Positions 1 through 33,685 of a DNA stretch of 64,000 nucleotides are shown one piece after another. Origin of the DNA: a phage; the NCBI GenBank assembly GCA_011911785.1, contig GCA_011911785.1_4084.1, one strand, 5' to 3'. The translations under genes and the position numbers were made by a program. Each line of letters opens with the position of its first letter. Position 1 is the stretch's first letter. Under the pieces are notes generated by a model, which saw only the letters and a list, made by a program, of their open reading frames with translations, did no database searches and was not told the DNA's origin.

Positions 1-86
1 CTGGAAATAAGTTTTTAAATGGAAGACATAAGTGTAGAATACAAAAGAATAATTTTTATCTTCCAAGTACAATAATCAGTGAAGAT

Positions 87-2126
87 GTGTATTATTTAAA
101 ACTACATTGTAAGCGTGATGGTACATTTAATAACGTGGAAAGTGTTGTTTTCAATTTACAGGCTATTAACGTCATGCATTTTGGGAACATTTCACCATCA
201 GGATTATTGCGTGCCAACAAAGCAACTGTTACATTTGATAGTAAAGAAATATGGGTAACACCTGGATTAACTGTTACCGATGATGAACAGTTATATTGTA
301 TTGGAGACATAGAGTATGGTTCAGATAGTACTTTATTCATTCAAGGCTTCGGTCGTAAACGTCCGTATCAACCAAATGTAGATAGTGCCGTTGACACCAG
401 TCCACGTGTATTCTTCCCCGCTTATCGCTTGCTTGATATAACAGAACAAGATTTACCGTCTCGACATATTACAGGTAAAGCAGCTTACTTACGACCAGAT
501 GACTTAGCGTTTCCGGTTGACGGAATTAATAAAGAAGTTAAAGTTAATATAGTTGATGATACTGGTAAGATTACAAAAAGTGGGCTTTCTTTTAACCCGA
601 ATGGACAATTCTTACAAACATTTTTACATGAATCAGAACCAACTGACGTTTACTTTAAGGTAGAAATCGTAGATATTCTCAAAACCTACAATACACTTTC
701 TGAACGTTTTGCTATTGATCAGCGTTTTAAAGCATATCAAATGTGGGTATGTCCAAACGATGTATCTACTATTGCTGCTACTGATGAAAAACCAAAACCT
801 AATCATTTATATCAATTAAGAGATAACGTTGTGTATCCATATGTTATTAGTGGTGAATATGATGAAGGTATGATCAAACCATTATTCAAAAGTTCTGATT
901 GGAATGATTTGGGTTATTATGATGTGTCATTGGGTAGTGGTATTATTGGTGAAAAGCGTATGTTCCGTTTCTTGGAAAACGCCGCTGAAGGTTCATCTAT
1001 ACAAATAATTACCGATCCTGACTTGGGAACTATACACGTTGGAGAATACTTCGGTCATACAGTATATCCTCAAATACTTACTAATAGTAAGAATCAAGTA
1101 TCTTGTGTATTAGTGGGCGGTGATGACATAACAAAATATGGATTGGATCTTACACCTGATGGGTATCTTGTAGGTACAGCATATGCATTAAGCACTGATT
1201 TTAGTGCCAATGATGATATAAAATTGAATTTCCAGGTTGAAGTTTATGACACTGAAGGTAGTAGTGTTATTGGTGATTTCAAATTAAAAATCGTTCGCGG
1301 GTTGGGGCAAAATCATTTGAGTTCACATATTGTTCCATCTGTTCAATTTGAACGTGAATGGTTTAAATGTATCAGTACTCAAACATTTGCTAATTATGGT
1401 TTCCATCGTCAATCTGATGACAGATATGGTTTACAGAAAGTTCCTAGGATTCTTCTAAAAGAAAACTTTGTTAGTCAAAACTATAATTACACTAACTTAA
1501 ATGATTTGAAAAAAGTTCTCCGTGAGAATATAATAGATCCATCAGGGGCGACAATCCCTAACGGTAAATTCAAGATGGTTATTGGTAATTACAAAATCAT
1601 GTCAGCACTTGACAACAAAGGAAACCTTCTGTATGATTTAGTGTTTAGAGAGTTACATCCAGAAGGAACACAAGTTGCTGTTTCTACCAATCCCAGAATC
1701 TACACAAACGTAGATAACGGACTACTTGCCGAATTATTTGGTTTACGCCAGAATATTTACAAGGCTGTTGGTGAAGACACAACCAACTTGGTAAAAGACC
1801 CAACAGACTTAGTTAACCGTGGGTTATATGTTGATGCTATACCAGGTATAAGTGATGAGATGATTGATACTGTTCCACGCTTCATGAATCATCCATATAT
1901 TGAAGATGGGATTGAGAAAAAATTTATGCCTATCATTCCAGTAGCATACTGCTTACCTGGTAAGGGTGAAGCGTTTTTCCAAATGTTATTACAAAACAAC
2001 GAACATAGTTCAATGGTTAGTACTGAATTTGAAGTAACAGCAGTTGAATTCGGATACTTTGCTCAAGATCATGAGCGTTATGTACATGATACATTTAGAA
2101 TTGCATTACAGAATGATATAATATAA
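87..2126 (+). CDS. hypothetical protein (679 aa)
   Basis: Long ORF with GTG start; in-frame stop at 36-38 upstream; no motif recognised. Confidence 0.6.
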   Translation: MYYLKLHCKRDGTFNNVESVVFNLQAINVMHFGNISPSGLLRANKATVTFDSKEIWVTPGLTVTDDEQLYCIGDIEYGSDSTLFIQGFGRKRPYQPNVDSAVDTSPRVFFPAYRLLDITEQDLPSRHITGKAAYLRPDDLAFPVDGINKEVKVNIVDDTGKITKSGLSFNPNGQFLQTFLHESEPTDVYFKVEIVDILKTYNTLSERFAIDQRFKAYQMWVCPNDVSTIAATDEKPKPNHLYQLRDNVVYPYVISGEYDEGMIKPLFKSSDWNDLGYYDVSLGSGIIGEKRMFRFLENAAEGSSIQIITDPDLGTIHVGEYFGHTVYPQILTNSKNQVSCVLVGGDDITKYGLDLTPDGYLVGTAYALSTDFSANDDIKLNFQVEVYDTEGSSVIGDFKLKIVRGLGQNHLSSHIVPSVQFEREWFKCISTQTFANYGFHRQSDDRYGLQKVPRILLKENFVSQNYNYTNLNDLKKVLRENIIDPSGATIPNGKFKMVIGNYKIMSALDNKGNLLYDLVFRELHPEGTQVAVSTNPRIYTNVDNGLLAELFGLRQNIYKAVGEDTTNLVKDPTDLVNRGLYVDAIPGISDEMIDTVPRFMNHPYIEDGIEKKFMPIIPVAYCLPGKGEAFFQMLLQNNEHSSMVSTEFEVTAVEFGYFAQDHERYVHDTFRIALQNDII

Positions 2127-2139
2127 TAGGAGAAAAAAT

Positions 2140-2448
2140 ATGTTCAATCCATTTTTTGACCCTTCTGGTATGAGTGATAAAGAACTCCAACAAAAGATTA
2201 ATGATCAAAGTTTACGTATTAGTTCCGCTCGTGCCGCTGGCTTGAGTGATTCTATCATTGGTAACATGCAAATAGTACTGAATCAGTGCTATGAAGAAAT
2301 GACTTTACGACAAGGTAGAAAAGAGAAAGACACATACGAAGATACTGATCCATGTATTTTTGATATGAATTCTTATCTATCAGATGAAGAGGATAGTAAA
2401 AAGAAAAATGAAAGTTCAAGGAAACAGATATATAAGTCCCAATGGTGA
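2140..2448 (+). CDS. hypothetical protein (102 aa)
   Basis: ORF preceded by AGGAG RBS (taggagaaaaaatATG). Confidence 0.6.
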   Translation: MFNPFFDPSGMSDKELQQKINDQSLRISSARAAGLSDSIIGNMQIVLNQCYEEMTLRQGRKEKDTYEDTDPCIFDMNSYLSDEEDSKKKNESSRKQIYKSQW

Positions 2449-2926
2449 TGTTAAATGTAATTTGAATGCTGTAGTTTATGCTATGAATTGTGGGTCTGAT
2501 ATACAGTACTTACAATTACAAGATATAGATGAACAAGAGCGTTTGAAGTTTAACGATAACTGTAAAAAATTTGGACTAGAGCAACGTATGTTGGATTATA
2601 CAATTGACCATGATAGTAATCATGAGTTATGGCGTTATGATCCAATGTATGACAATATCAATCTAAGAGAATTCTTTTTACAAAAGTGTTCCACACCTGA
2701 AGCAAGACAGCGTGTGGAATACGAAATTGATTTATACGAACAATATAATATGACAAAGCTATTGCGTTGTATGATATGGTTGGTAGATTATATGGAAGAG
2801 CACAACATCTTCTGGGGCTTAGGGCGTGGTAGTTCTGTAGCCTCATATTGTCTGTTTCTGATTGGTTTGCATATGGTTGACTCATTGAAGTATGATCTCG
2901 ATGTGAACGAATTTCTGAAATGGTAA
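2384..2926 (+). CDS. hypothetical protein (about 170-180 aa)
   Basis: ORF overlapping the previous stop; true start may be 2408 or 2483. Confidence 0.45.
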   Translation: MKRIVKRKMKVQGNRYISPNGDVKCNLNAVVYAMNCGSDIQYLQLQDIDEQERLKFNDNCKKFGLEQRMLDYTIDHDSNHELWRYDPMYDNINLREFFLQKCSTPEARQRVEYEIDLYEQYNMTKLLRCMIWLVDYMEEHNIFWGLGRGSSVASYCLFLIGLHMVDSLKYDLDVNEFLKW

Positions 2927-2984
2927 CGAAACATGTGATATAATGGTTGTTGTGACGTTATAGCACTTAGAAAAGGGATTTTAT

Positions 2985-3347
2985 ATGTCAAAACATACTA
3001 CTTATCGTGGCACTATCATTGATATGGATATGCTAAAATATCAGAACCAACATCAGGTTGCATTGGGTAATGCTAAACTAAATGCTCGTGGTGATAAAAT
3101 TGGTTCTGGTGGAACTGTAATTAAAACTCGTGAAGAACTACTTCAAGAGAAAGAACGTGAAATGCAAATTCCTGACTATATTCCAGAACATCAGGCACAA
3201 AGCACTGATTATTCTGATGATGGTTGGGATGATGCAAGCTTTGAAGTTGAGCATGTCGTTGTACAAAACGAAGAAACAGTTGATCCTTCAGTTGCACCTG
3301 AAGAGAAGAAAGCACCACGCAGAGCAAAAACTAAAGATCAGGAGTAA
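2985..3347 (+). CDS. hypothetical acidic protein (120 aa)
   Basis: ORF with upstream purine-rich RBS. Confidence 0.55.
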   Translation: MSKHTTYRGTIIDMDMLKYQNQHQVALGNAKLNARGDKIGSGGTVIKTREELLQEKEREMQIPDYIPEHQAQSTDYSDDGWDDASFEVEHVVVQNEETVDPSVAPEEKKAPRRAKTKDQE

Positions 3348-3352
3348 TACAA

Positions 3353-3676
3353 ATGTCTAAAGTTATGACAGCATGTAAGGGAAAAGTACTGGTTACTGAT
3401 TTAGAACATGGCGAACGAAAAACTGCTGGTGGAATTGTTTTAACAAATGATGACGGTAAAATTCGTGGTATTCGTTGTCGTTGGGCTAAAGTTTATTCAG
3501 TTGGTGAAGATATAACTGATATTAAAGAAGGTCAATGGATTCTTATTGACCACGGTCGCTGGTCCAGAACTATTGAGGTTGATGGTGTTCAATTAAACTT
3601 AGTTGATTACCCAGCCGCAGTATCTTTGGTTTCCGATGAAGACCCACGTACTTCAGTACAAACATTTGGACGTTAA
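3353..3676 (+). CDS. GroES-like co-chaperonin (Hsp10 family)
   Basis: 107 aa; KTAGGIVL motif as in GroES (KSAGGIVL); glycine-rich beta-hairpin pattern; RBS aggagtaatacaaATG. Confidence 0.65.
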   Translation: MSKVMTACKGKVLVTDLEHGERKTAGGIVLTNDDGKIRGIRCRWAKVYSVGEDITDIKEGQWILIDHGRWSRTIEVDGVQLNLVDYPAAVSLVSDEDPRTSVQTFGR

Positions 3677-3730
3677 TTATAAAAGTAAGCTCGGAATATA
3701 TATTCTGGGCTTTTTATTTGGTTATATAAT

Positions 3731-4000
3731 ATGATTACAGATAATGATAAGTTTAGCTTTTCGGATGTTCAACTTGTTTCAAAGAATAATAGGTTTTTGT
3801 TTGAAGATAGGAAGAATACCAAATATGTTTATGAAGTATCTCACGATGTATTTAAGCACTTACTTGTAGTTGCTGCAAATGCAAAAGCACGTGGCATTGA
3901 CAATAAAGTAAATTCTTTTGACTATCTCTTTAATCAGTTGGAGATGACAGAAGACCTATTCACCGCACTACTATACCATCTATCAGATTGGACTCACTAA
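3731..4000 (+). CDS. hypothetical protein (89 aa)
   Basis: ORF in gene-dense + strand context. Confidence 0.5.
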   Translation: MITDNDKFSFSDVQLVSKNNRFLFEDRKNTKYVYEVSHDVFKHLLVVAANAKARGIDNKVNSFDYLFNQLEMTEDLFTALLYHLSDWTH

Positions 4001-4019
4001 TTTACATGAGGAATAATAA

Positions 4020-4973
4020 ATGACTACACTATGGACTGAAAAATATCGCCCACAAACCCTAGAAGATTACGTTTTCAAAAATGATGCTCTTCGTAAAAAG
4101 ATGGAAGAATGGATTTGTACTGGCAATATTCCACATATTGGATTCTTTGGTCCCGCTGGTACAGGAAAAACTTCAGCGATTAAAGTACTACTAAATGGAC
4201 TTGAAGCTAATGGTCACCTGGACCCAAGTGATGTAACAACTCTAAACATGTCAGATGAGGGTATTGATGCTGTGCGTGATAAGATTGACGCAGCCGCAAA
4301 ACTATCATGTTTTGGACGTTATCGTGTATTTGTTCTGGAAGAAATGGAACAGATGAACCACAAAGCACAAGGTAGCCTGAAGCGTGTAATGGAAGATTAT
4401 CACGAGAATGCTCGTTTTATTCTAACCAGTAATGAGCCACATAAAATTTTGAAACCTATTATTTCTCGTGTGCAAGTAATTACAATCGAGAAGCATGATA
4501 TGGAACAGTTTATGACCCGTATCATCAACGTACTGTTAGCTGAGGGTGTAGATTTATCATCCGAAGAAAGTATTGATCAAGTGCAGCAATACATCAATGC
4601 ATCGTACCCTGACTTCCGCAAAACATTAAACGTATTGCAGAGTTCAGTAGTTGATGGTAAACTAGTAAAACTAGAAGACAGTATTGAGAATTCTGCTGGG
4701 TATCGCACGGCAATCGTTGATGCATTAAAGGCGGGAAACATTCGTCAGATGCGTGAGCAGATTGTTCAAAATATCCCTGATGACGAAATGGATGCATTTT
4801 TCTCGTATCTGTATCGTAATGCAGAAATGTTCAGTACTGATGAAATCACACTAATGAAAATCAAGGTTAAAATCCGTGATGCAGTTGTCAAACAATCAAC
4901 AGTTTCTGATCGTGAGATGAACCTGAGTGCATTACTATGTGAAATTGACTTGATTTGTTCAGGAAATATGTAA
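4020..4973 (+). CDS. sliding-clamp loader ATPase subunit (T4 gp44 / RFC small subunit-like)
   Basis: Walker A GPAGTGKT; EKYRP N-terminus; SRV(C)-like motif; YPDFRKT box resembling T4 gp44 FPDFRKT; 317 aa vs 319 aa for T4 gp44. Confidence 0.8.
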   Translation: MTTLWTEKYRPQTLEDYVFKNDALRKKMEEWICTGNIPHIGFFGPAGTGKTSAIKVLLNGLEANGHLDPSDVTTLNMSDEGIDAVRDKIDAAAKLSCFGRYRVFVLEEMEQMNHKAQGSLKRVMEDYHENARFILTSNEPHKILKPIISRVQVITIEKHDMEQFMTRIINVLLAEGVDLSSEESIDQVQQYINASYPDFRKTLNVLQSSVVDGKLVKLEDSIENSAGYRTAIVDALKAGNIRQMREQIVQNIPDDEMDAFFSYLYRNAEMFSTDEITLMKIKVKIRDAVVKQSTVSDREMNLSALLCEIDLICSGNM

Positions 4974-5593
4974 TGAAACAACGTTGTGTAGTATGGGATT
5001 GTGATGAAGTGCTATTGGACCACATTGGTGGTCTATATAATTTTGTTAAAGAACATTATGATATTCATCCAGAAACACCATATCCAGAAAAATATGATTT
5101 GTGTCAGTGGTTGGGTGGAATTACTCAACCTGAAGTTCAAGAGATTCTAAAACACTTCAACCATCGTTCTTATGAGTTTGGTCTACTTGACCCAGTAGAA
5201 CATAACACGGTTGGAATTATGCAAGAATTACGTGATAAGTTCCCATATGATAAATTTGTAGTACTGACTAAATCTGGTACATTCGGTCACGGGGAAGTTC
5301 TCCGTAAGGTGAATCTCATTAATGTATTTGGTGAAGGTATTTTTGATGATATCATTATCATTGAAATGTATGAATCCAAAAAATCAGCACTAATGAAATT
5401 AAAAGCTCAATATGACGTTAAATTTTTGATTGACGATTATATTAAAAATATAGAAACGGCTATAGAGTTGGATATACCTGCTGTTATGATGTGTGCGTGT
5501 CATAACCATGAATACAAGCATAACAACGGCTTTGATTATGTTAATAATTGGAGCGAACTTCGTCTAAAAATTTACGAACTAATGAAAAAATAA
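4973..5593 (+). CDS. HAD-superfamily 5'(3')-deoxyribonucleotidase-like protein
   Basis: N-terminal DxDxV-type motif (VVWDCDEVLLD); start refined to ATG 4973 overlapping the upstream stop. Confidence 0.5.
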   Translation: MKQRCVVWDCDEVLLDHIGGLYNFVKEHYDIHPETPYPEKYDLCQWLGGITQPEVQEILKHFNHRSYEFGLLDPVEHNTVGIMQELRDKFPYDKFVVLTKSGTFGHGEVLRKVNLINVFGEGIFDDIIIIEMYESKKSALMKLKAQYDVKFLIDDYIKNIETAIELDIPAVMMCACHNHEYKHNNGFDYVNNWSELRLKIYELMKK

Positions 5594-5597
5594 CAAT

Positions 5598-5628
5598 AGG
5601 GGAACTTGATTCCCCTTTCATTGTTTTC
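5598..5628 (+). terminator. putative intrinsic terminator
   Basis: GGGGAA-loop-TTCCCC hairpin followed by T-rich tract. Confidence 0.45.
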
Positions 5629-5676
5629 AAAGTAGTAAATAATATAAATGTTCAAGTTTTTAAGGGAATAAAAAAC

Positions 5677-6252
5677 ATGGAAGATATGAATACAACAGAC
5701 AATGCTATCCAGCAATTATATGATAATTCTGGAATGTTAGACATTCTTCTGGCGGTTGAAAAATATTTTGATGACAATGATTTATATGCCTATACTGGTG
5801 TAATTGAAGGTGAACTAGTTGAGGGACCAAATGTTACTAAGTACTGGTGTACTGTTACATTCAAATATTATAGAGAAAACTTTCCAGATCCAACAGCATT
5901 CACAGTTTTAGAAAAACATGGAACTAAAGTTCAAGTTAAAGCTGATTACGAAATACGACCAATTGCGAAGCCTCGTAGTCGTAATGATATGAAAACACAA
6001 GCAACTCAACATGGATCAGTGAATGTACCAAGAACCGAAAGAGTACCAGTACTACTAGTTCGTTTTCAAATACCGCGAAATCTAATTAATCCAGAAAGCT
6101 TTGATGAATACAAACTAATGGCATCTGAATTTAATAGTAATCCAATGAACTTAGATCAAAATTCACCTGATATGAGTATGGAAGATGAGCAGGATGTTCA
6201 AGAATTAGATGCAGAATTTGGTGCACCTGATGAACAGAAAGGAGGAATGTAA
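5677..6252 (+). CDS. hypothetical protein (191 aa)
   Basis: Start refined to in-frame ATG 5677 with RBS aagggaataaaaaacATG downstream of the hairpin. Confidence 0.55.
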   Translation: MEDMNTTDNAIQQLYDNSGMLDILLAVEKYFDDNDLYAYTGVIEGELVEGPNVTKYWCTVTFKYYRENFPDPTAFTVLEKHGTKVQVKADYEIRPIAKPRSRNDMKTQATQHGSVNVPRTERVPVLLVRFQIPRNLINPESFDEYKLMASEFNSNPMNLDQNSPDMSMEDEQDVQELDAEFGAPDEQKGGM

Positions 6253-6932
6253 TGTCTAAACAATTAAATGAACAGGGATTGCGTCCTGAAGTGCTTAAAG
6301 ACCTGATTTACCCTATTATCAGTGTTGATGAATATACGCCTAAAATTGAAGATGGTAATATCGTTGTTATGTTTCAGGTGTTGAATAATTTTGATGCTGC
6401 ATATGATTTGTCCTCTTTCATTGAGAAATCACCAATCACTGCGGTAGATACTGAAGCTGCTGAAACACCTAACCTAGATGGTAGATATCAAGTATTTGTT
6501 GAAATGGAACGTAATGCAGAGTTTCCAGAAAAATTACTAACTCTAATTAAGACTATTGAAAACATTTGTCCAAATCCAGGATGGAAAATACAGCTTTATG
6601 GTGTTAATGATCCAATTGATGTAGACTTTGATGAAGTTCAGCAACGTGTTGAATTGGGAACACCAGATGCACTAAGTGAGTTTTTGGATTATGCTGGCGT
6701 AACTGTACTCAAAGAGGGTAATAACCTAAAACTACAAACCGTGTATGGTGATTTATGTTATAGTACTGGTAGTGGTTTTGCATCTGAGGAATACATCAAA
6801 TCTATGCTGAAAACTGAAACCAAATTAGATACATCAAGACTTAGTTCTATATTAGGTGAAAACTATACAGTACTACGTAGTGGTAATCAGTATATAGTTG
6901 GTAGAGATGGGAAGTATCTGGTGCTAAGATGA
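6252..6932 (+). CDS. hypothetical protein (226 aa)
   Basis: RBS aaaggaggaatgtaATG; ATGA-type overlap with upstream stop. Confidence 0.6.
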   Translation: MSKQLNEQGLRPEVLKDLIYPIISVDEYTPKIEDGNIVVMFQVLNNFDAAYDLSSFIEKSPITAVDTEAAETPNLDGRYQVFVEMERNAEFPEKLLTLIKTIENICPNPGWKIQLYGVNDPIDVDFDEVQQRVELGTPDALSEFLDYAGVTVLKEGNNLKLQTVYGDLCYSTGSGFASEEYIKSMLKTETKLDTSRLSSILGENYTVLRSGNQYIVGRDGKYLVLR

Positions 6933-7747
6933 GAATTTTAAATATGTTGAAATCTCTACATGAAAGTACTAAATTGGTTCAGGATGAAAAGTATCGTCGC
7001 AGTACTACAAAAGATTTAGCTTGTAGAATGTATATGCGTAGATTTGAGATTTCAAGGATTGGTAAGGGATGGGATGACATTAAACGTGATGATATCGATC
7101 CCGATGCAATCTTTAAAGCATATATGGCACGAAAGGTTTTCATTAATGAAAAAACATTTTATATTGACAGTGATAGAGAACGTGAAGTACAATTCACAAA
7201 AGGATTGTGGAAAATCTGGTGCATTGAGACATTTGGTGAGTTGTTACCTGAACCACCAGTACCAGAGACGTACAAAGAACTAAAGAACATCTTTGATAAT
7301 GAACATATACATATGAATTTTTCATTATATGAGACTGTCAATGAGGCATTGTTCTATGGTGAACTACACGGTCATAATGAATATTTTAGTTCTATGGTAG
7401 AGTTTGATTTGTTTTGTCATTTACCTGGGGTACAAAGCTGGACATCTGATCAGTACAGAGCCAGTAAGGTTGACAAACGTAAATTTTCAGCACAGAGATT
7501 TGTACAAGCAGCAATGGGTATGTATAAACTGGACTATCTGAACTGTCCAGAACCATATAAACATTTTTGGAAAGAAAGAGCACAGAAATGTTTAAACTAT
7601 GCTATCATACGTCTTATGGAAGTTTACATTTTAAAATTTAGGAATGCAACGGTGTATGATATGCCGGAGCCACCTAAAGATGAGAAGTACCCACCAGTTA
7701 AGGGTTTCAACTGGTACAGAGAGAAGAACAACAAAGGGACGTGCTAA
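6929..7747 (+). CDS. hypothetical protein (272 aa)
   Basis: ORF overlapping upstream gene by 4 nt. Confidence 0.6.
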   Translation: MRILNMLKSLHESTKLVQDEKYRRSTTKDLACRMYMRRFEISRIGKGWDDIKRDDIDPDAIFKAYMARKVFINEKTFYIDSDREREVQFTKGLWKIWCIETFGELLPEPPVPETYKELKNIFDNEHIHMNFSLYETVNEALFYGELHGHNEYFSSMVEFDLFCHLPGVQSWTSDQYRASKVDKRKFSAQRFVQAAMGMYKLDYLNCPEPYKHFWKERAQKCLNYAIIRLMEVYILKFRNATVYDMPEPPKDEKYPPVKGFNWYREKNNKGTC

Positions 7748-7763
7748 GGTGCGTCCTTTTTTC
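7736..7763 (+). terminator. intrinsic terminator
   Basis: GGACG-loop-CGTCC hairpin followed by TTTTTTT. Confidence 0.6.
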
Positions 7764-7772
7764 ATTTAGGTG

Positions 7773-7801
7773 TTGACAATACTAATCAAGTTAGATAGAA
7801 T
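7773..7801 (+). promoter_or_regulatory. sigma70-like promoter
   Basis: TTGACA, 17-nt spacer, TAGAAT. Confidence 0.6.
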
Positions 7802-7837
7802 AGCATTATTGATTTACTATTAATTAAAAAGAGGCTG

Positions 7838-8959
7838 ATGATGAAAGGAAAATATTTTTTCATTGAGAACAAACAAGAAATTGAAATCCAAGAGTTTGAT
7901 TACCAGTTTGTGTTGAATTCATTACTGAAAAAGTATGATCGTCGCGACAATAAAAAGTACTTTTATAATGTAATCGTAAAACGTACTTATGATTCAATGG
8001 GAAATCCCGAATTTGATGTTCGTAATTTAGAACTATCAAAAATTTACTATTCAAACACACGTTTGAATATGTTAGATCTCATGAAAGATGAAATTCATTT
8101 TAAAAATATTCAGATTCGTGATTTACCAGTGCCCCCACTTGAGCGTGAATACGAAGCATGGAAAGAAGGTCGTCTTAAACCACGTCCAGAACTTGCAGTG
8201 GTTGAAGTGCCAGCACCAATTGTTCTGACTAAAACACCAATTGATCCAGAAGATGAACGCATTGCGGATATCGAACAATGGATGGAATTTCCTGAAACTA
8301 TTAAAAAGGATTCTGTAAAAGTACTGGATTGGTTCGTAAACTTACCAGTATGTGCACAGGAAGTTGGTGTGAAGATTCAAAAAATTTCAGAGCGTCAATT
8401 GGACCTTAATGATGCATTACATAAGCATAGTGATTATGTTAGAACATTAATGAATAACTTAACCACTGCACTTGAATCGTTATTCCCATTGAAACCAACA
8501 TTTACACAAAAACTGTTTGGTAAAGCTGATATAAAGGTTCAACAGGCCGATTTACCTAAAGTAATGAAAGCATTGAATGATGCAGTGAAATATGATACGA
8601 ATAAGTTTAGTGGTTTAACTTCATTGTTTAATGAAATTCGAACTGAAGTTCGTGATATTAAAGATGAATTAGAATACGGAAAAATTGGGTGTGAGTATGC
8701 TATTCGTCGTTTGGATGATGCATTTGAATATGAACTGACTCTTGAACGTATCATGAAAATGAGCATTACCGCCGCAATGACTGAAGCTAGTATCGTTAAT
8801 GTGAGTAAACAGTATCAGATTGATATGAATAGAATGGTAGATATCCAAACTATTACTATTCCGTTGATTATCAATCGTTTACAGACACAAGTTGGAAAAG
8901 CAGTAGACGCAGATACCGCCGCGATCATTCGCAACTTAGCTTACGGCGATAAAGAGTAA
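7838..8959 (+). CDS. hypothetical protein (373 aa)
   Basis: ORF with RBS aaaaagaggctgATG downstream of a promoter. Confidence 0.6.
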   Translation: MMKGKYFFIENKQEIEIQEFDYQFVLNSLLKKYDRRDNKKYFYNVIVKRTYDSMGNPEFDVRNLELSKIYYSNTRLNMLDLMKDEIHFKNIQIRDLPVPPLEREYEAWKEGRLKPRPELAVVEVPAPIVLTKTPIDPEDERIADIEQWMEFPETIKKDSVKVLDWFVNLPVCAQEVGVKIQKISERQLDLNDALHKHSDYVRTLMNNLTTALESLFPLKPTFTQKLFGKADIKVQQADLPKVMKALNDAVKYDTNKFSGLTSLFNEIRTEVRDIKDELEYGKIGCEYAIRRLDDAFEYELTLERIMKMSITAAMTEASIVNVSKQYQIDMNRMVDIQTITIPLIINRLQTQVGKAVDADTAAIIRNLAYGDKE

Positions 8960-8968
8960 AAATAGTTG

Positions 8969-8997
8969 TTGACATAACTGTGTGTTGCTCGTATAAT
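8969..8997 (+). promoter_or_regulatory. sigma70-like promoter with dyad symmetry around the -10
   Basis: TTGACA, 17 nt, TATAAT; inverted repeat GTGTTGCTC / GAGCAACAC brackets the -10. Confidence 0.6.
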
Positions 8998-9044
8998 GTT
9001 TATCACAGAGCAACACTATCTTAAATTAAATGAGGAATAACCTA

Positions 9045-10172
9045 ATGTCCGAGAAAGAAATCAATCCAAAAAAAGCAACTACCAAAACTTCTAAGCGTAC
9101 TACGACCAAAACCAAAGGTAATACTTTTGATGCGAGTGATATTTTCGACCAACAGTCTAAGACGTTACCAGTACTGAAAGATACAAAAGGTAACACTATG
9201 TCTTTAACTGTTCAGAACATTAACACCATTGGAACAACTGCTGGTGCAGGTGTCGGACGACTGGCTGATGAAATCATGTCAAAAGTGAACGTCACTGATG
9301 ACAATACTGAATTTGGTAAATCAATTACCACAATTTTATCACTAACCCGTGCTGTTGATATTGACAGTCTACAAGATGATAAATCAATTGTAGGTTGGGT
9401 CAAAAAACTCTTTGTCAATGCAAAACAGAAAGTTGGTGATCAGTACAAGAATAGTAAAGAGCAGATTGATGAAATCATGAACACACTCCAGGTTGGTATC
9501 AATCGCCAACATAGTGAATGTGAGTGGTTGGATACTGCTTACAATGAGAATAAAGCCTATCTATTTGAATTACGCGATACGCTGGTTGAATTGGAACAAG
9601 TTACAAAAACTCAAGATGCTAAACTGGAAGAAATGCAAGCGAACCCTGATGTGGATTCTTTCGCAATCCAAGAGCAGAAGATGATTTGTGAAGCATTGTC
9701 TAAACAGGAAGATAAGATTCGCCGTCTTATCATGATGTGTGAGCTTAGTGGCCCTCGTCTGATGAGTATGAAGAAAGTGAATCTAAACACTGTATCTAAA
9801 TTTGAAGATCTGAAATCTGTTGTCATCCCTGCATGGAAATCACAACTAGCAGAACAATTGATTTCTGAACGCCAACGCAAAGATAATGAGTTGGGTAATT
9901 TGATTGATAATGAAACTAACCGTTTACTTGAAGTGAACTCCAAAATGGTAGCAACTAATATGTTAGATGCTGCTAAAGCTAATAACCGTGGTATTGTGGA
10001 TATTAAAACATTGCGTAACGTACACAAAACAATGATCGATAGCATCGAAGCAGTACTGATTGAAGAGAAGAAAGGTAAGGAAGAACGTGAACGTGCTAAA
10101 CATGAAATTGCACAGTTGTCCTACGAACTTGAAGAAACTCTTCGCGAAATTGCTGACAAAGCTAACAAGTAA
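9045..10172 (+). CDS. hypothetical coiled-coil protein
   Basis: Start refined to ATG 9045 (RBS tgaggaataacctaATG); K/E-rich heptad-like C-terminal half. Confidence 0.55.
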   Translation: MSEKEINPKKATTKTSKRTTTKTKGNTFDASDIFDQQSKTLPVLKDTKGNTMSLTVQNINTIGTTAGAGVGRLADEIMSKVNVTDDNTEFGKSITTILSLTRAVDIDSLQDDKSIVGWVKKLFVNAKQKVGDQYKNSKEQIDEIMNTLQVGINRQHSECEWLDTAYNENKAYLFELRDTLVELEQVTKTQDAKLEEMQANPDVDSFAIQEQKMICEALSKQEDKIRRLIMMCELSGPRLMSMKKVNLNTVSKFEDLKSVVIPAWKSQLAEQLISERQRKDNELGNLIDNETNRLLEVNSKMVATNMLDAAKANNRGIVDIKTLRNVHKTMIDSIEAVLIEEKKGKEERERAKHEIAQLSYELEETLREIADKANK

Positions 10173-10175
10173 TAG

Positions 10176-10204
10176 TTGACATATAAATGTGCCCATTGTA
10201 TAAT
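10176..10204 (+). promoter_or_regulatory. sigma70-like promoter with hairpin-embedded -10
   Basis: TTGACA, 17 nt, TATAAT; inverted repeat ATGTGCCCATT / AATGGGCACAT flanks the -10, followed by T-rich tract. Confidence 0.6.
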
Positions 10205-10237
10205 GGGCACATATTTTATTAATTATCTAAGGATAAT

Positions 10238-10939
10238 ATGATGGCAGATAAAGTTACACACTATGCAGTTGATATTGAATCTTTCGGAACTCCAGAACGT
10301 AGTGGTTATGATATTACCATTCCAAATTACGCAATTGTTTTAGTTCCAACTAACCCAATGAAAGATATCTCACGTTATGCATATGTTAAACTACCATTCC
10401 AAAAACAAATTGATGCTGGTCTTAAAGTTGATGCAGGTTCAATGAACTTTTGGATGAATATGTGTCAAAATGATCATAAAGGTGCATATGAAGAAGTAGT
10501 TAGTACACTCACGTTGACAGAACCAGAAATTATTTCCGGTAGTCAAAACAATTTGTATAAAACAAAAAATGTACTTGATTTGTGGAATGCACTTCGTTAT
10601 GATCTTAATGGAAATGAGAACAATATTGAAATTTGGGGTAATGGCTGTCACTTCGATTGTAGTATTCTTCAAGCAAACCATCGTAAAATGTTTGGTGTGG
10701 GCGAATTGTGGAAATACAATGCACCACAGAATGCCCGAAGTGTTAAGAATCGCCTAACTGAAGATGAAAAATTTGACATGGATTCCATTGTTGATGTACA
10801 ATTGAAAAAGTTTGTGGAGATGGTTGCTGATCATGGTCTTTATGGTCTAGAACTTCACCACCCATTATTCGATGCAGCACGTGAAGCTATCCAGGTTTCA
10901 TATTGCTTAAATGCAATCAACGAACGCGGAAACTATTAA
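10238..10939 (+). CDS. DEDDh-type 3'-5' exonuclease (DnaQ/DexA-like)
   Basis: Exo I-like YAVDIESFG, Exo II-like WGNGCHFDCSIL, Exo III-like HHPLFDAAREA. Confidence 0.6.
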   Translation: MMADKVTHYAVDIESFGTPERSGYDITIPNYAIVLVPTNPMKDISRYAYVKLPFQKQIDAGLKVDAGSMNFWMNMCQNDHKGAYEEVVSTLTLTEPEIISGSQNNLYKTKNVLDLWNALRYDLNGNENNIEIWGNGCHFDCSILQANHRKMFGVGELWKYNAPQNARSVKNRLTEDEKFDMDSIVDVQLKKFVEMVADHGLYGLELHHPLFDAAREAIQVSYCLNAINERGNY

Positions 10940-10949
10940 AGGTAACACA

Positions 10950-12047
10950 ATGAACTTAGCAATTCTTCTAATACCAAGTTTGATAGTTGTTCTAATCATG
11001 AAGTTCAAATACCATACTGCCATAACAACAAAGGAATTGCTAATTCATACTGGAATTTGCTTTCTTGCAGCGGTGTTGGTATTGGGAACATCATACTTGA
11101 TAAACTACAGCCAACTTCGTGATGTTGAAATTCTAAATGGTCAGGTTACAGAGAAATACAGCCAACGTGAGAACTGCACATCACAATCAAGTTCTTGTAA
11201 ACACTATACTTGGCATGAGCGTTGCTGGACTACCTATGATTCTAAAGGTCGCTCACAACGTGAATGTGAATCTTATAAGGTATTCGACTATCCGTATGAG
11301 ATTGATTGGTACGTTAAAAGCACTGTTGGTAAGTTTGAGATTGAAAGGGTCAATAGACAAGGAACACAAACTCCACCACGCTGGCAAGAAGTGAAAATTG
11401 GTGATTATGCAGCAGCAGAAAACACATACATAAATTATCTATTTGCAGATAAACACTCATTATTCAGTACTGAAGATTTGATTTCTATGTATGATAAAGA
11501 ATATCTGGAATCTTTACCTGAATATCCAAGTATTAGTGATTATTATAAAACACACCACGTTATTAATAAAACTGATTACGATGTGAGTGGGTATGATGAA
11601 TATTTACGTGAAGTGTTAAAAACATTAGGTGCACAAAAGCAAGTAAACATTCAAGTACTAGTATATGATTATCATGACGTGAATTTTGTTGATGCAGTAA
11701 CCTCAATCTGGCGTGGTGGCAAGAAGAACGATGTGATTATGTTCTTTGGTATCAGTAATGATGGTGTCGTTAAATCATTCAATAGTACGTCATTCGCTAA
11801 AGGTATGAATAATGAAGAATTGCATTCTAAAATGCGAATGGATGCGTTAAATGAAGTATTAACACTTGACTTACTTAAAGTTCAGGTTCATAATATACAG
11901 ACTAAGTTTGAACGTCTGTCGAATAAAGAGTTTGAATACATGGCAGTTAAAATGGAACCACGAAAAGATGTTATGATTGCTGCATCTTTGATTCTCATTG
12001 TACTGTCGATTGTTGTTGGTCTTTATATGAAGGAAAATAATGTATGA
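10950..12047 (+). CDS. membrane protein (N- and C-terminal hydrophobic segments)
   Basis: Start refined to ATG 10950; hydrophobic stretches at both ends. Confidence 0.55.
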   Translation: MNLAILLIPSLIVVLIMKFKYHTAITTKELLIHTGICFLAAVLVLGTSYLINYSQLRDVEILNGQVTEKYSQRENCTSQSSSCKHYTWHERCWTTYDSKGRSQRECESYKVFDYPYEIDWYVKSTVGKFEIERVNRQGTQTPPRWQEVKIGDYAAAENTYINYLFADKHSLFSTEDLISMYDKEYLESLPEYPSISDYYKTHHVINKTDYDVSGYDEYLREVLKTLGAQKQVNIQVLVYDYHDVNFVDAVTSIWRGGKKNDVIMFFGISNDGVVKSFNSTSFAKGMNNEELHSKMRMDALNEVLTLDLLKVQVHNIQTKFERLSNKEFEYMAVKMEPRKDVMIAASLILIVLSIVVGLYMKENNV

Positions 12048-12598
12048 ATAAGCCTCTGATTTTGTTGGTTGGTGTGTTGGTGATTTTTGTTATTGGTGTG
12101 TTTGCAACTGTAAGTATGTATAGTTCAGCACATGATAGTGCAGTGAATTTTGAAGGTAATATTAAAAAGTACTACGATGCATCTGAAAGTCAACTGAGCA
12201 GTTATACACTAACTATTCAAGAAAAGGTTCAAGTATCGGACAAATATAAGGATGCATTGAAAGAGACAATCGAAGCGTACTTTAAGGGACGTGAAGGAGT
12301 TGATCAGAAATTTGTAATGTCACAGATTCAACAACAAGTTCCAAATCTTGATCCTAAGATTTATCAAGAGTTGATGGTTACAATTGATGCAGGGCGTGAG
12401 AAGTTCAATAACTTGCAGAAAATGAAAATTGAACAATGTACTGATTATGAGAAATTCCGTAAAGGTTTCTGGAACTCAAAAATCATCGATTCTAATACAT
12501 TCCCAAGTAAAGATATTGAACATTTGTGTACTGTTGTTTCTGATACTCGCACTAAGAAAGCAATGGAAACTGGTATTCAGGAAGTAATTAAATTGTAA
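12044..12598 (+). CDS. membrane-anchored protein (184 aa)
   Basis: Single N-terminal hydrophobic helix; ATGA overlap with upstream gene. Confidence 0.55.
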   Translation: MNKPLILLVGVLVIFVIGVFATVSMYSSAHDSAVNFEGNIKKYYDASESQLSSYTLTIQEKVQVSDKYKDALKETIEAYFKGREGVDQKFVMSQIQQQVPNLDPKIYQELMVTIDAGREKFNNLQKMKIEQCTDYEKFRKGFWNSKIIDSNTFPSKDIEHLCTVVSDTRTKKAMETGIQEVIKL

Positions 12599-12603
12599 GT
12601 ATT

Positions 12604-12633
12604 TGGGGAGTACATTATTGTACTCCCTTTTTA
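12604..12633 (+). terminator. intrinsic terminator
   Basis: GGGAGTACA-loop-TGTACTCCC hairpin followed by TTTTT. Confidence 0.65.
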
Positions 12634-12647
12634 ATAGGATATAAACT

Positions 12648-13229
12648 ATGTTTTATAATGAAACTCTTAAGTTGTTCGAGCGTATAGCAGAAATCAAAAA
12701 GCGTGCATATGATAATATAATTCTTCCTTATAGTTTTGAATCAGATACTATAATTTTTAAAATGAAACATCATGCTCGTCATTATGAATTTATTTTAGGG
12801 ATAAAAGAACCTAAAATTGAATCCAATGTTCCAAATATATCATCATCTATCGCAGTTCCAAGCGGTGTAAATATTGCCCACGGTCATCCAATGACAATTG
12901 CGGCAACTTCATCCAATACGATTATTGAGCGTTATATTAAAGTTTGTACAACAACAGCTATGCAAAATATCATATCAGTTGAGTGGAGTGAACTACCAAG
13001 TAACTTCATTTACTTCACCAATAGTAATGGTACAACATCTGAGAAAGAATCTATGGGTAATAAGATTATGTCAGCTATGATTCTACATGAAAAAACGCTT
13101 ATCAATGGTGAAATATATTCATTAGAAGACAATCCAGATGCATTTATTAAAGACATTGAGGGTTCCAATAAATTTAGTATTTTAGAAGTATTAAATCTTG
13201 AAAAGGATTATAAACATGCAATACGATAA
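12648..13229 (+). CDS. hypothetical protein (193 aa)
   Basis: ORF following a terminator. Confidence 0.55.
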   Translation: MFYNETLKLFERIAEIKKRAYDNIILPYSFESDTIIFKMKHHARHYEFILGIKEPKIESNVPNISSSIAVPSGVNIAHGHPMTIAATSSNTIIERYIKVCTTTAMQNIISVEWSELPSNFIYFTNSNGTTSEKESMGNKIMSAMILHEKTLINGEIYSLEDNPDAFIKDIEGSNKFSILEVLNLEKDYKHAIR

Positions 13230-31464: not shown

Positions 31465-32464
<1,000 letters not shown>

Positions 32465-32474
32465 TTAAAAAAAG

Positions 32475-33412
<938 letters not shown>

Positions 33413-33429
33413 CTGTAGTATTCAGTACT

Positions 33430-33621
<192 letters not shown>

Positions 33622-33622
33622 A

Positions 33623-33680
<58 letters not shown>

Positions 33681-33685
33681 CAATC

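What the first reader, a model, noticed from the sequence alone, without database searches (positions are those of the whole stretch)
3353..10939. T4-like replication and chaperone genes without T4 synteny
The clamp loader resembles T4 gp44 in length and in motifs, and a GroES-like co-chaperonin and a DEDDh exonuclease are nearby. However, the order and neighbours differ from T4 (no gp62, gp45 or gp43 adjacent). This suggests a distant T4-related or jumbo myovirus lineage with a rearranged early region.
Basis: partly seen in the sequence, partly recalled or inferred. Interest (0 to 1): 0.4.

Follow-up and report, generated by a model that had tools for sequence, protein, structure and literature searches.

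The report
Known jumbo coliphage replication-chaperone gene block
This stretch is an ordinary, already sequenced piece of a giant E. coli phage (genus Asteriusvirus, 96-99% identical to phage A4) that carries distant cousins of three phage T4 genes in a gene order typical of its own lineage; the one real puzzle is that its clamp loader has no recognisable sliding clamp to load.

Summary
Window 3353-10939 encodes a Cpn10/GroES-like protein (3353-3676), an RFC/gp44-type AAA+ clamp loader (4020-4973) and a DEDDh exonuclease (10238-10939). Each falls in the same PHROG as T4 gp31, gp44 and DexA. No gp62, gp45 or gp43 is adjacent.

The window is 96-99% identical to Escherichia phage A4 (Asteriusvirus, a Rak2-like jumbo myovirus), so "jumbo myovirus" is correct. 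The distant T4 kinship of this group has been published since 2013.

"Rearranged early region" is not supported:
- The order PolIII-alpha N-fragment, orf120, Cpn10-like, loader, NT5C-type phosphatase, two virion proteins recurs in Vibrio, Pseudomonas, Agrobacterium, Sinorhizobium and marine jumbo phages.
- The block is a mosaic of sigma-70-promoter units, a late-type structural unit and terminators.
- gp62 and gp45 are not moved. They are undetectable in the whole genome.

Verdict: already known, low interest. A residual open question is the loader's missing clamp. The polymerase keeps a conserved aromatic C-terminal tail like T4's, which suggests a clamp exists.

The parts
2407..2925 (+). N-terminal (NTP-binding) fragment of a split, minimal DNA polymerase III alpha. 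It lies just upstream of the finding but is the first gene of the conserved module.
   Evidence: Pfam PF07733 at 1.3e-9 and phrog_11127 at 1e-86. The same fragment sits in the same position in L010, L012, L034, L035 and L036. Described for 'group 2.2' jumbo phages in PMC7824862.
2985..3347 (+). orf120: an uncharacterised protein with a conserved N-terminal domain of about 55 aa (motif AxGNxxxNARGDxxGxGG) and an acidic tail.
   Evidence: phrog_14844, no Pfam or PDB match. At least 805 cluster representatives at E<=1e-3. Always found between the PolIII-alpha N-fragment and the Cpn10-like gene.
3353..3676 (+). Cpn10-fold co-chaperonin of the phage gp31 type (107 aa).
   Evidence: Cpn10 23.2 bits and phrog_931 at 1.5e-19, the PHROG of T4 gp31. 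Mobile loop 9/11 identical to E. coli GroES. In the alignments it has a 6-residue insertion after the loop, as gp31 does, and lacks the roof-hairpin segment.
3687..3712 (+). Terminator-like hairpin followed by a T-run, after the co-chaperonin gene.
   Evidence: 11-pair stem, then TTTATTT.
3731..4000 (+). orf89: a small protein immediately upstream of the loader. It is specific to Rak2-like phages.
   Evidence: phrog_16539 at 5e-44. The small ORFs in the same position in Vibrio phage 2.275.O and the marine phage are not homologous to it.
4020..4973 (+). RFC/gp44-type AAA+ clamp-loader ATPase (317 aa).
   Evidence: see the observation check. NCBIfam RFC small subunit model matched over residues 2-311.
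4973..5593 (+). HAD-superfamily phosphatase, probably an NT5C-type 5'(3')-deoxyribonucleotidase. Its start overlaps the loader stop (TAATG).
   Evidence: Motif I DCDEV. phrog_420 at 2e-30. Weak match to the putative deoxyribonucleotidase 3bwv. The syntenic orthologues in Atu_ph07 and Phosso pass Pfam NT5C. Overlap shown.
5598..5616 (+). Terminator-like hairpin after the HAD gene. A TATAAATG late-promoter-like box follows, before 5677.
5677..6252 (+). Virion protein (191 aa): an alpha+beta core with a disordered acidic tail. It is not gp62.
6252..6932 (+). Conserved protein of 226 aa, annotated as virion structural. Two-domain alpha+beta fold. It is not a sliding clamp.
6944..7747 (+). orf267, function unknown, last gene of the late-type unit. 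The terminator hairpin 7733-7760 overlaps its end.
   Evidence: phrog_15954, no Pfam hit. Hairpin.
7773..7801 (+). Sigma-70-type promoter (TTGACA-17-TAGAAT, 11/12) in front of orf373.
7838..8959 (+). orf373, function unknown.
   Evidence: phrog_13312, no Pfam or NCBIfam hit.
8969..8997 (+). Perfect sigma-70 consensus promoter (TTGACA-17-TATAAT) in front of telA. Its -10 is bracketed by the 9-bp inverted repeat GTGTTGCTC/GAGCAACAC.
9030..10172 (+). TelA-like (toxic-anion-resistance family) protein.
   Evidence: Pfam TelA at 5e-38 and phrog_5890 at 7e-131. [quoted passage not shown]
10176..10212 (+). Perfect sigma-70 consensus promoter (10176-10204) overlapping an 11-bp-stem hairpin (10187-10212) that also looks like the telA terminator.
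10238..10939 (+). DEDDh 3'-5' exonuclease of the T4 DexA / Rv2179c-like family (233 aa).
   Evidence: PF16473 35.4 bits and phrog_255 at 5e-36; T4 DexA scores PF16473 79.9 bits and phrog_255 at 3.6e-91. D12, E14, D140, H207 and D212 are invariant.

Best explanation
The span is a segment of an Asteriusvirus (Rak2-like jumbo myovirus of E. coli), a sibling isolate of phage A4. Its genes are deep homologues, not recent relatives, of T4 gp31, gp44 and DexA. They sit in a gene order that is ancestral to a large assemblage of jumbo phages rather than derived from T4's.

Shown here:
- The identity of the genome.
- The family assignments.
- The intact catalytic motifs.
- The conserved order PolIII-alpha N-fragment, orf120, Cpn10-like, loader, NT5C-like phosphatase, two virion-protein genes.
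- The promoter and terminator punctuation.
- The absence of gp62, gp45 and beta-clamp homologues.

Inferred mechanism:
1. The loader assembles into an RFC-like ATP-driven ring opener that places a processivity clamp at primer ends for the phage PolB. The fifth subunit and the clamp are either unrecognisably divergent phage proteins or host proteins.
2. The Cpn10-like protein forms a GroES/gp31-type lid that docks on host GroEL through its GGIVL loop. This would let GroEL fold phage proteins, most likely the large capsid protein, as gp31 does in T4.
3. The DexA-like enzyme trims 3' ends or oligonucleotides, and the HAD enzyme dephosphorylates dNMPs. Both feed nucleotide turnover.
4. telA, orf373 and the exonuclease gene are read early by host sigma-70 RNA polymerase. 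The three genes after the phosphatase gene are late virion genes.
For: Genome identity:
- 99.0% over the finding and 96.4-99.3% over 63,115 of 64,000 nt to ON286972.1.
- The A4 annotation matches every ORF.

Family assignments.

Motifs:
- Loader.
- Exonuclease.
- GroES loop.

Loader phylogeny:
- The jumbo-phage clade has 99% bootstrap support and is separate from the T4-type clade (84%).
- Identity to T4-type loaders is 22-31%.

Synteny:
- The module is found in Vibrio phage 2.275.O, a marine UViG, PA5oct, Atu_ph07 and Phosso.
- T4-type lineages keep 45-44-62-regA-43.

Promoters and terminators: two 12/12 and one 11/12 sigma-70 sites lie in the right intergenic gaps. There are 16 terminator-like hairpins against 5.3 +/- 2.8 expected.

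A clamp probably exists: the PolB of nine Rak2-like phages ends in a conserved GFFxW tail after EKST. This parallels the T4 gp43 end ...EEKASLDFLFG.

Literature:
- Rak2-like phages have distant homologues of gp43, gp44, gp41, gp61 and gp32 but not gp45, gp62 or gp59 (PMC3622015; PMC5259590).
- HSP10 in group 2 and 3 jumbo phages is proposed to recruit host HSP60 (PMC7824862).
Against: - No clamp and no gp62-type subunit can be named, so the loader's actual substrate is unknown.
- The first acidic residue of Walker B is Glu, not Asp (LEEME), in this branch. This is conservative but untested.
- The Cpn10 Pfam score is marginal, and BLASTP to T4 gp31 finds nothing.
- The gp31-like loop insertion and the missing roof hairpin rest on low-identity alignments of 6-8 sequences.
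- The temporal classes are inferred from consensus motifs only.
- The conserved position of the Cpn10-like gene inside a replication-gene cluster could mean a role other than capsid folding.
Confidence: 0.82

Rival explanations
1. One reading: a T4 relative whose early replication region has been rearranged, so that gp62, gp45 and gp43 were moved away from gp44.
For: The three proteins share PHROGs with T4 gp31, gp44 and DexA. The literature counts 21 of 38 T4 core genes in Rak2-like phage CBB. PolB, gp32-, UvsX-, UvsY- and topoisomerase II-type genes lie within 50 kb upstream.
Against: gp45 and gp62 are absent from the whole genome, not relocated. Leave-one-out controls show the HMMs would have found them. 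The arrangement is shared by jumbo phages as distant from the window as T4 is by loader identity (30-34%). The loader branches outside the T4-type clade. The span mixes early-type and late-type units.
Confidence: 0.08
2. The loader gene was acquired horizontally from an archaeal or eukaryote-like RFC source, so its likeness to T4 gp44 is only the general RFC likeness.
For: Against PDB sequences the best matches are archaeal and eukaryotic RFC small subunits (113 bits, 1e-31), ahead of T4 gp44 (78 bits) and E. coli gamma/tau (47 bits). The best NCBIfam model is RFC small subunit at 162 bits.
Against: The phage profile phrog_168, which holds T4 gp44, scores much higher (265 bits). The gene is fixed in a conserved module throughout a deep jumbo-phage clade, with a continuum of relatives from 93% down to 40% identity. 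T4 gp44 is itself a fast-evolving RFC-family member, so a higher score to slower-evolving RFCs is expected. No RFC sequence could be put in the tree, so the root is untested.
Confidence: 0.07
3. The loader-like ATPase does not work with a phage clamp at all. It either loads the host beta clamp or has a clamp-independent role in the conserved module with the split PolIII-alpha and the Cpn10-fold protein.
For: No phage clamp or gp62 is detectable. The loader is always linked to a bacterial-type PolIII-alpha fragment. The genome also has a DnaQ-like epsilon gene. In bacteria, PolIII alpha and epsilon are beta-clamp clients (established knowledge).
Against: All residues needed for an RFC-type ATPase ring are kept, including the T4 Gln118 equivalent. 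The PolB tail GFFxW resembles the T4 gp45-binding tail rather than the bacterial QL[SD]LF motif (plus established knowledge). No RFC/gp44-type loader is known to open a beta dimer (own knowledge).
Confidence: 0.15

Closest known systems
Escherichia phage A4 and other Asteriusvirus / Rak2-like jumbo phages (121Q, PBECO4, RaK2, CBB, GAP32)
   Same: A4 is 96-99% identical in nucleotides over the whole window and has the same ORFs in the same order. The others are 76-78% identical over the finding. The T4-like homologues and the lack of gp45, gp62 and gp59 have been described for this group.
   Different: Relative to A4, the window lacks about 1 kb inside the cytosine methyltransferase gene and carries 520 extra nt in an HNH-like ORF. 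Nothing differs within the finding itself apart from about 1% substitutions.
T4 clamp loader gp44/gp62 with clamp gp45
   Same: Same length, same AAA+ clamp-loader motifs including the Gln118 equivalent, the SRC arginine and the sensor 2 arginine, and the same PHROG. Identity is 30%.
   Different: There is no gp62, no gp45 and no 45-44-62-regA-43 synteny. Walker B is LEEME rather than IDEFD. The loader branches in a separate clade.
Archaeal/eukaryotic RFC small subunit
   Same: It gives the best scores among solved structures and NCBIfam models, with full-length coverage.
   Different: The score is far below the equivalog cut-off (162 against 303 bits). No RFC large subunit and no PCNA homologue is found in the genome (for the gp45 type; PCNA itself was not searched with a profile).
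T4 gp31 / E. coli GroES co-chaperonins
   Same: Cpn10 family and the gp31 PHROG. The GroEL-binding loop is almost identical to that of host GroES. In the alignments it shares the gp31-like extra loop residues and the missing roof hairpin.
   Different: There is no pairwise similarity to gp31. The family has its own motif, HGRW(S/T)R. Its genomic place is between replication genes. The genome also has a second, canonical GroES.
T4 DexA (exonuclease A) / Rv2179c-like DEDDh exonucleases
   Same: Same Pfam family and same PHROG, and the five catalytic residues are conserved.
   Different: Identity is only about 20%, with a 30-40-residue insertion between Exo I and Exo II. The substrate is unknown.

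Membership tests
AAA+ clamp-loader ATPase (RFC small subunit / T4 gp44 family) | Walker A P-loop GxxGxGK[ST] | tested here: met
   GPAGTGKTS. G47, G49 and K50 are invariant in 15 sequences.
AAA+ clamp-loader ATPase (RFC small subunit / T4 gp44 family) | Walker B hhhhDE with the catalytic Glu | tested here: met
   The catalytic E108 is invariant. The preceding Asp is Glu (LEEME) in the Rak2-like/Vibrio branch. This is a conservative variant whose effect is untested.
AAA+ clamp-loader ATPase (RFC small subunit / T4 gp44 family) | Sensor 1, SRC-motif arginine finger, sensor 2 arginine, and the Gln equivalent to T4 Gln118 | tested here: met
   T136/N138, S149-R150 (SRV), P197-D198-x-R200 and Q117 are all invariant. 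The role of Gln118 is described in PMC8121543 (abstract).
AAA+ clamp-loader ATPase (RFC small subunit / T4 gp44 family) | Full three-domain architecture (AAA+ module, lid, collar) | tested here: met
   The NCBIfam RFC small subunit model is matched over residues 2-311 of 317, and phrog_168 over 3-314. The Pfam Gp44_lid score is only 19.8 bits, below its cut-off.
T4-type clamp-loader system (gp44 + gp62 + gp45) | A gp62-type fifth subunit encoded in the genome | tested here: not met
   No phrog_225 hit in the span. The gp62 HMM against all 1380 A4 ORFs gives a best E of 0.13, while held-out gp62s score E<=1e-15. The 191-aa neighbour is not gp62-like.
T4-type clamp-loader system (gp44 + gp62 + gp45) | A gp45-type (or beta-type) sliding clamp encoded in the genome | tested here: not met
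T4-type clamp-loader system (gp44 + gp62 + gp45) | 45-44-62(-regA-43) gene cluster | tested here: not met
   The cluster is present in T4, RB69, KVP40, Moby and Kuttervirus, and with insertions in P-RSM4. It is absent here.
Cpn10 co-chaperonin (GroES / T4 gp31) | Match to the Cpn10 and gp31 family profiles | tested here: met
   Pfam Cpn10 23.2 bits against a 21.1 cut-off (marginal). phrog_931 at 1.5e-19; T4 gp31 matches the same PHROG at 3.7e-50.
Cpn10 co-chaperonin (GroES / T4 gp31) | Mobile loop with the hydrophobic GroEL-binding tripeptide | tested here: met
   ERKTAGGIVLT against E. coli ETKSAGGIVLT, 9/11 identical. GGI(I/V)(L/F) is kept in six jumbo-phage orthologues.
Cpn10 co-chaperonin (GroES / T4 gp31) | gp31-type traits: lengthened loop and no roof hairpin | tested here: inconclusive
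   Both traits are seen in the MAFFT alignments A4 and A6. These align 6-8 sequences at 18-27% identity to GroES and gp31, and no structure was predicted.
Cpn10 co-chaperonin (GroES / T4 gp31) | Heptamer that caps GroEL and supports folding | not testable with these tools
   This needs biochemistry or genetic complementation.
DEDDh 3'-5' exonuclease, DexA / Rv2179c-like | Family profile match and the five catalytic residues D-E-D-D plus His | tested here: met
   PF16473 35.4 bits against a cut-off of 27. phrog_255 at 5e-36. D12, E14, D140, H207 and D212 are invariant with T4 DexA.
T4-like phages in the taxonomic sense (Straboviridae and allies) | Closest relatives among T4-like taxa | tested here: not met
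   The best hits are Asteriusvirus and other Rak2-like phages. T4-type phages are at 22-31% for the loader and are absent from the hits of the GroES-like protein.
Genus Asteriusvirus | High nucleotide identity and collinearity with a classified member | tested here: met
   96.4-99.3% identity over 98.6% of the window to phage A4, which is classified in Asteriusvirus.

The most novel reading that the evidence does not exclude
The deeply conserved block PolIII-alpha N-fragment, orf120, Cpn10-fold protein, RFC-like loader, NT5C phosphatase is a functional replication accessory unit of the Rak2/PA5oct/Atu_ph07 jumbo-phage assemblage. In this reading it works with a sliding clamp of a kind not recognisable by sequence, or with the host beta clamp. 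The Cpn10-fold protein and the widespread uncharacterised orf120 would then have a replication-linked role rather than, or besides, capsid folding.
Probability: 0.15. Interest if true: 0.55.

Novelty: already known. Interest (0 to 1): 0.18.

Why it matters
As it stands, it matters little. The sequence is a near-duplicate of a published, annotated jumbo coliphage. Its partial set of T4-like replication genes has been discussed in the RaK2 (2013), CBB (2017) and jumbo-phage comparative (2021) papers.

Two things are worth keeping:
- The arrangement is not a scrambled T4 region. It is a module conserved across hosts from E. coli to Agrobacterium and marine bacteria.
- This whole assemblage keeps a motif-complete clamp loader and a polymerase with a clamp-tail-like end, but no findable clamp.

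Finding that clamp, or showing that the host's is used, would close a gap in how some of the largest phage genomes are replicated.

Tried and rejected
1. Hidden gp62/gp45. The ORFs after the loader are 191 and 226 aa, against 187 and 228 aa for gp62 and gp45.
   - BLASTP found nothing.
   - AlphaFold2 on 34-sequence alignments gave pLDDT 73.5 and 88.
   - BFVD gave only uncharacterised orthologues.
   - Rejected. The 191-aa protein's PA5oct orthologue is an MS-verified virion protein.

2. orf89 as a conserved small loader subunit. The ORFs in that position in Vibrio phage 2.275.O and the marine phage are unrelated sequences. Rejected as a conserved partner.

3. Genome-wide search for gp45, gp62 and beta clamp with unfiltered HMMs. 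Nothing was found, and the controls were positive.

4. Other searches that gave nothing:
   - orf120: no Pfam family in 35 members and no PDB match with the profile.
   - Rfam on 1-13500: nothing.
   - PDB sequence search for the exonuclease: nothing.
   - orf373 as a TelA paralogue: only E 0.1, left open.
   - Supplement of PMC7824862, to see whether a clamp was scored for group 2.2: not held.

5. The first tree script timed out. A second produced NaN warnings. It was redone cleanly.

Full report
**What the window is**

A megablast of 3353-10939 against 50,697 phage records gave one match at 99.0% over the full length, Escherichia phage A4. This is ON286972.1, 355,528 bp, genus Asteriusvirus, isolated on E. 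coli LF82. A further 51 records matched at 76-78%: 121Q, PBECO4, slurp01, UE-S1, and Klebsiella, Salmonella, Cronobacter, Pectobacterium, Erwinia and Xanthomonas jumbo phages. After assembling the whole A4 record from annotated stretches, the window aligns to A4 271,205-335,714 at 96.4-99.3% identity over 63,115 of 64,000 nt. The window therefore comes from a sibling isolate of a published, annotated Rak2-like jumbo myovirus. A4 is described in PMC9355613.

**Check of the observation**

The span runs exactly from the ATG of a 107-aa ORF to the stop of a 233-aa ORF, and holds ten plus-strand ORFs.

Clamp loader (4020-4973, 317 aa):
- Pfam DNA_pol3_delta2 at 1.3e-13 and AAA at 1.4e-10.
- phrog_168 at 1.6e-78 over residues 3-314. 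This is the PHROG of T4 gp44.
- BLASTP to T4 gp44 (319 aa) gives 30% identity over 254 aa, E 1e-28.
- In a 15-sequence alignment the following are invariant: the P-loop (G47, G49, K50), the Walker B glutamate E108, Q117 (the T4 Gln118 position), sensor 1 (T136, N138), the SRC arginine R150, and sensor 2 (P197-D198-x-R200).

GroES-like ORF (3353-3676):
- It passes Pfam Cpn10 narrowly (23.2 against 21.1 bits).
- It matches phrog_931 at 1.5e-19, the PHROG holding T4 gp31.
- Pairwise BLASTP to gp31 finds nothing.
- Its only BLASTP similarity to E. coli GroES is the mobile loop, ERKTAGGIVLT against ETKSAGGIVLT, 9/11 identical.

Exonuclease (10238-10939):
- It matches Pfam Rv2179c-like (35.4 bits) and phrog_255 (5e-36).
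- T4 DexA belongs to both families (79.9 bits; 3.6e-91).
- D12, E14, D140, H207 and D212 align with DexA's DEDDh residues.

None of the ten ORFs hits the PHROGs of gp62 (phrog_225) or gp45 (phrog_223).

**The rest of the span**

- 4973-5593 is a HAD phosphatase. It has motif I DCDEV, and its start overlaps the loader stop as TAATG. Its syntenic orthologues in Atu_ph07 and Phosso pass Pfam NT5C, the 5'(3')-deoxyribonucleotidase family.
- 5677-6252 and 6252-6932 fall in PHROGs annotated as virion structural proteins.
- 6944-7747 and 7838-8959 have no known function.
- 9030-10172 is a TelA-family protein (5e-38).
- Just upstream of the finding lie a 173-aa fragment of DNA polymerase III alpha (PF07733) and a 120-aa ORF.

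**Transcription signals**

Terminator-like hairpins are enriched, with 16 found against 5.3 +/- 2.8 expected. They fall after the co-chaperonin gene (3687-3712), after the HAD gene (5598-5616), at the end of orf267 (7733-7760), after telA (10187-10212) and at 12605-12628.

Sigma-70 sites lie in the intergenic gaps:
- A perfect TTGACA-17-TATAAT precedes telA (8969-8997).
- Another precedes the exonuclease gene (10176-10204).
- An 11/12 site precedes orf373 (7773-7801).
- The gap before 5677 carries TATAAATG, close to the T4 late box TATAAATA, which the CBB paper also noted upstream of structural genes.

These are consensus matches, not measurements. They argue that the span consists of several units of different temporal class rather than one early region.

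**Relation to T4**

The loader:
- tblastn against phages gave 2,508 records. Only 72 have at least 60% identity, and all are Rak2-like.
- The next tier lies at 25-33%: Campylobacter Fletchervirus, Stenotrophomonas Moby, cyanophages, Kuttervirus, KVP40, T4, RB69 and a halovirus.
- Against PDB sequences, archaeal and eukaryotic RFC small subunits score higher (113 bits) than T4 gp44 (78 bits) or E. coli gamma/tau (47 bits). The best NCBIfam model is RFC small subunit, at 162 bits and well below its cut-off.
- In a neighbour-joining tree with 300 bootstraps, the window groups with Salmonella, Yersinia and Vibrio jumbo phages and three metagenomic relatives at 99%. T4, RB69, KVP40, Kuttervirus, PTm5, Moby and P-RSM4 form the other side at 84%.

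The GroES-like protein has tblastn hits in only 89 records. All are jumbo phages of one assemblage: Asteriusvirus, RaK2, CBB, GAP32, Eneladusvirus, Vibrio 2.275.O, PA5oct-like phages, Atu_ph07, Phosso and Xoo-sp13.

The proteins are therefore family-level homologues of T4 proteins, but the lineage is not T4-like in any narrow sense. This agrees with the literature:
- RaK2 has distant homologues of gp43, gp44, gp41, gp61 and gp32 but not gp45 or gp62 (PMC3622015).
- CBB has 21 of 38 T4 core genes, a gp44 homologue at 30% identity, a truncated PolIII alpha and GroES-like genes. It lacks gp62, gp45 and gp59 (PMC5259590).
- A comparative study places such phages in 'group 2.2'. That group has a split minimal PolIII alpha, standalone TelA and HSP10 (PMC7824862).

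**Synteny**

T4, RB69, KVP40, Moby and Kuttervirus keep 45-44-62-regA(-43). The cyanophage P-RSM4 keeps the order with insertions.

The window does not have this order, but its own order is deeply conserved.
- Vibrio phage 2.275.O (loader 51% identical): the 679-aa structural protein, PolIII-alpha fragment, orf120, the Cpn10-like gene (55%), some inserted ORFs, the loader, HAD (36%), and the 191-aa (41%) and 226-aa (37%) proteins.
- A marine metagenomic phage (loader 40%): PolIII-alpha fragment, an orf120-like gene, an inserted PEPCK gene, the Cpn10-like gene (49%), a 77-aa ORF, then the loader.
- PA5oct, Atu_ph07 and Phosso (loaders only 30-34% identical, about as far from the window as T4 is): PolIII-alpha fragment, orf120-like, Cpn10-like, loader and NT5C phosphatase in the same order. 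In PA5oct and Atu_ph07 the 191-aa and 226-aa homologues follow downstream.

The arrangement is thus an old feature of this assemblage, not a rearrangement of T4's. Because these genomes are broadly collinear here, the linkage alone does not prove functional coupling. Its survival in the otherwise reshuffled marine phage is still notable.

**The missing clamp**

A loader needs a clamp. I tested three ideas.

First, the ORFs after the loader and HAD genes have gp62-like and gp45-like lengths.
- AlphaFold2 on alignments of 34 homologues gave confident models: pLDDT 88 for the 226-aa protein and 73.5 for the 191-aa protein.
- BFVD returned only uncharacterised orthologues.
- The PA5oct orthologue of the 191-aa protein is an MS-detected virion protein.
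- This idea is rejected.

Second, the 89-aa ORF directly upstream of the loader is not conserved. The ORFs in that place in two relatives are unrelated sequences.

Third, I built HMMs of gp45 and gp62 from six lineages and searched all 1,380 ORFs of at least 60 aa in the complete A4 genome with filters off.
- The best E-values were 0.15 and 0.13.
- Leave-one-out controls recovered every held-out gp45 (E<=1e-33) and gp62 (E<=1e-15), while the best A4 ORF stayed at E>=0.026.
- E. coli DnaN found nothing (best E 0.35).

The absence reported in the literature is therefore robust at the sequence level.

On the other side, the PolB of A4 and eight other Rak2-like phages ends in ...EKST-x5-GFFxW. The aromatic end is conserved while the linker varies. 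This is positionally like the T4 gp43 end ...EEKASLDFLFG, which is the gp45-binding tail (established knowledge). I infer that a clamp partner probably exists and is either very divergent or host-derived. This is inference only.

**The co-chaperonin**

Alignments with E. coli GroES, T4 gp31, the canonical GroES of phage A4 and five jumbo-phage orthologues show several features:
- A conserved GGI(I/V)(L/F) loop.
- A 6-residue insertion after the loop, at the place where gp31 also has extra residues.
- Absence of the GroES roof-hairpin segment.
- A family-specific HGRW(S/T)R motif.

These alignments are at low identity, so the gp31-type traits are suggestive only. The A4 genome has a second, canonical GroES (Cpn10 59 bits, phrog_3188) 1.5 kb downstream of PolB, outside the window. 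The most likely role is a GroES/gp31-type lid for host GroEL. Its fixed place among replication genes is unexplained.

**orf120**

An exhaustive HMMER search found 805 cluster representatives at E<=1e-3. They share the N-terminal 55 residues, with invariant A26, G28, N29, N33, G36, D37, G40 and G43. None of 35 members has a Pfam family, and there is no PDB match. Among cultured phages the gene occurs in 85 records, nearly the same set as the Cpn10-like gene.

**Verdict**

The feature is already known. The sequence is a near-copy of an annotated genome, and the T4 relationship, including the missing gp45 and gp62, is published. Interest is low.

Two points go slightly beyond the published descriptions I could read:
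- The depth of conservation of the PolIII-alpha fragment, orf120, Cpn10-like, loader, NT5C order.
- The conserved PolB tail, set against the controlled absence of any clamp.

Noticed in passing
window 2407-2925: A 173-aa stand-alone fragment of bacterial-type DNA polymerase III alpha (PF07733 positions 16-95 only). It is the N-terminal half of the 'split minimal PolIII alpha' described for group 2.2 jumbo phages, and it is always found a few genes upstream of the loader.
   Followed up: partly
window 2985-3347: orf120 has an N-terminal domain of about 55 aa (AxGNxxxNARGDxxGxGG). The domain is shared by at least 805 protein-cluster representatives, with no Pfam family and no solved relative. 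In cultured phages it co-occurs with, and sits next to, the Cpn10-like gene.
   Followed up: partly
L010, L012, L034, L035, L036 compared with window 2407-6932: The order PolIII-alpha fragment, orf120, Cpn10-like, loader, NT5C phosphatase (then the 191-aa and 226-aa proteins) is kept in Vibrio, marine, Pseudomonas, Agrobacterium and Sinorhizobium jumbo phages whose loaders are only 30-51% identical.
   Followed up: yes
L007 295-3300 (phage A4 PolB, outside the window); L025-L032: The PolB proteins of nine Rak2-like phages end in a conserved ...EKST-x5-GFFxW tail, reminiscent of the gp45-binding end of T4 gp43, although no clamp gene can be found.
   Followed up: partly
window 4326-4340 (loader residues 103-107): The Walker B box reads LEEME, with Glu in place of the usual Asp, in the Rak2-like and Vibrio branch. 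Marine relatives and all T4-type loaders have (I/L)DE(A/F)D.
   Followed up: partly
window 8969-9020 and 10176-10212: Both perfect sigma-70 promoters are wrapped in inverted repeats. The 9-bp arms GTGTTGCTC/GAGCAACAC bracket the -10 of the telA promoter. The -10 of the exonuclease promoter lies in the loop of an 11-bp-stem hairpin that also looks like the telA terminator. These may be operators or overlapping terminator/promoter designs.
   Followed up: no
window 21440-22300: The ORF corresponding to A4's 632-aa 'DNA-cytosine methyltransferase' is only 286 aa here. About 1 kb of A4 sequence (A4 292,880-293,916) is missing from the window.
   Followed up: no
window 50078-50890: A 270-aa ORF with HNH-like Cys/His motifs contains 520 nt (50116-50635) that are absent from phage A4. 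It is possibly a mobile homing-endonuclease gene that differs between isolates.
   Followed up: no
window 31777-35217: A cluster of six tRNA genes: Ser-tga, Gly-tcc, Ser-gct, Met, Asn and Thr. The tRNA-Gly at 32922-32997 is not annotated in the A4 record.
   Followed up: no
L007 4863-5162 (phage A4, outside the window): The lineage carries a second, canonical GroES (Cpn10 59 bits, phrog_3188) just downstream of PolB, so it has two Cpn10-fold genes, both next to replication genes.
   Followed up: partly
L034 6335-7264 (Pseudomonas phage PA5oct): The PA5oct orthologue of the clamp loader (34% identical, E 4e-55) is annotated only as 'hypothetical protein' in the public record.
   Followed up: no
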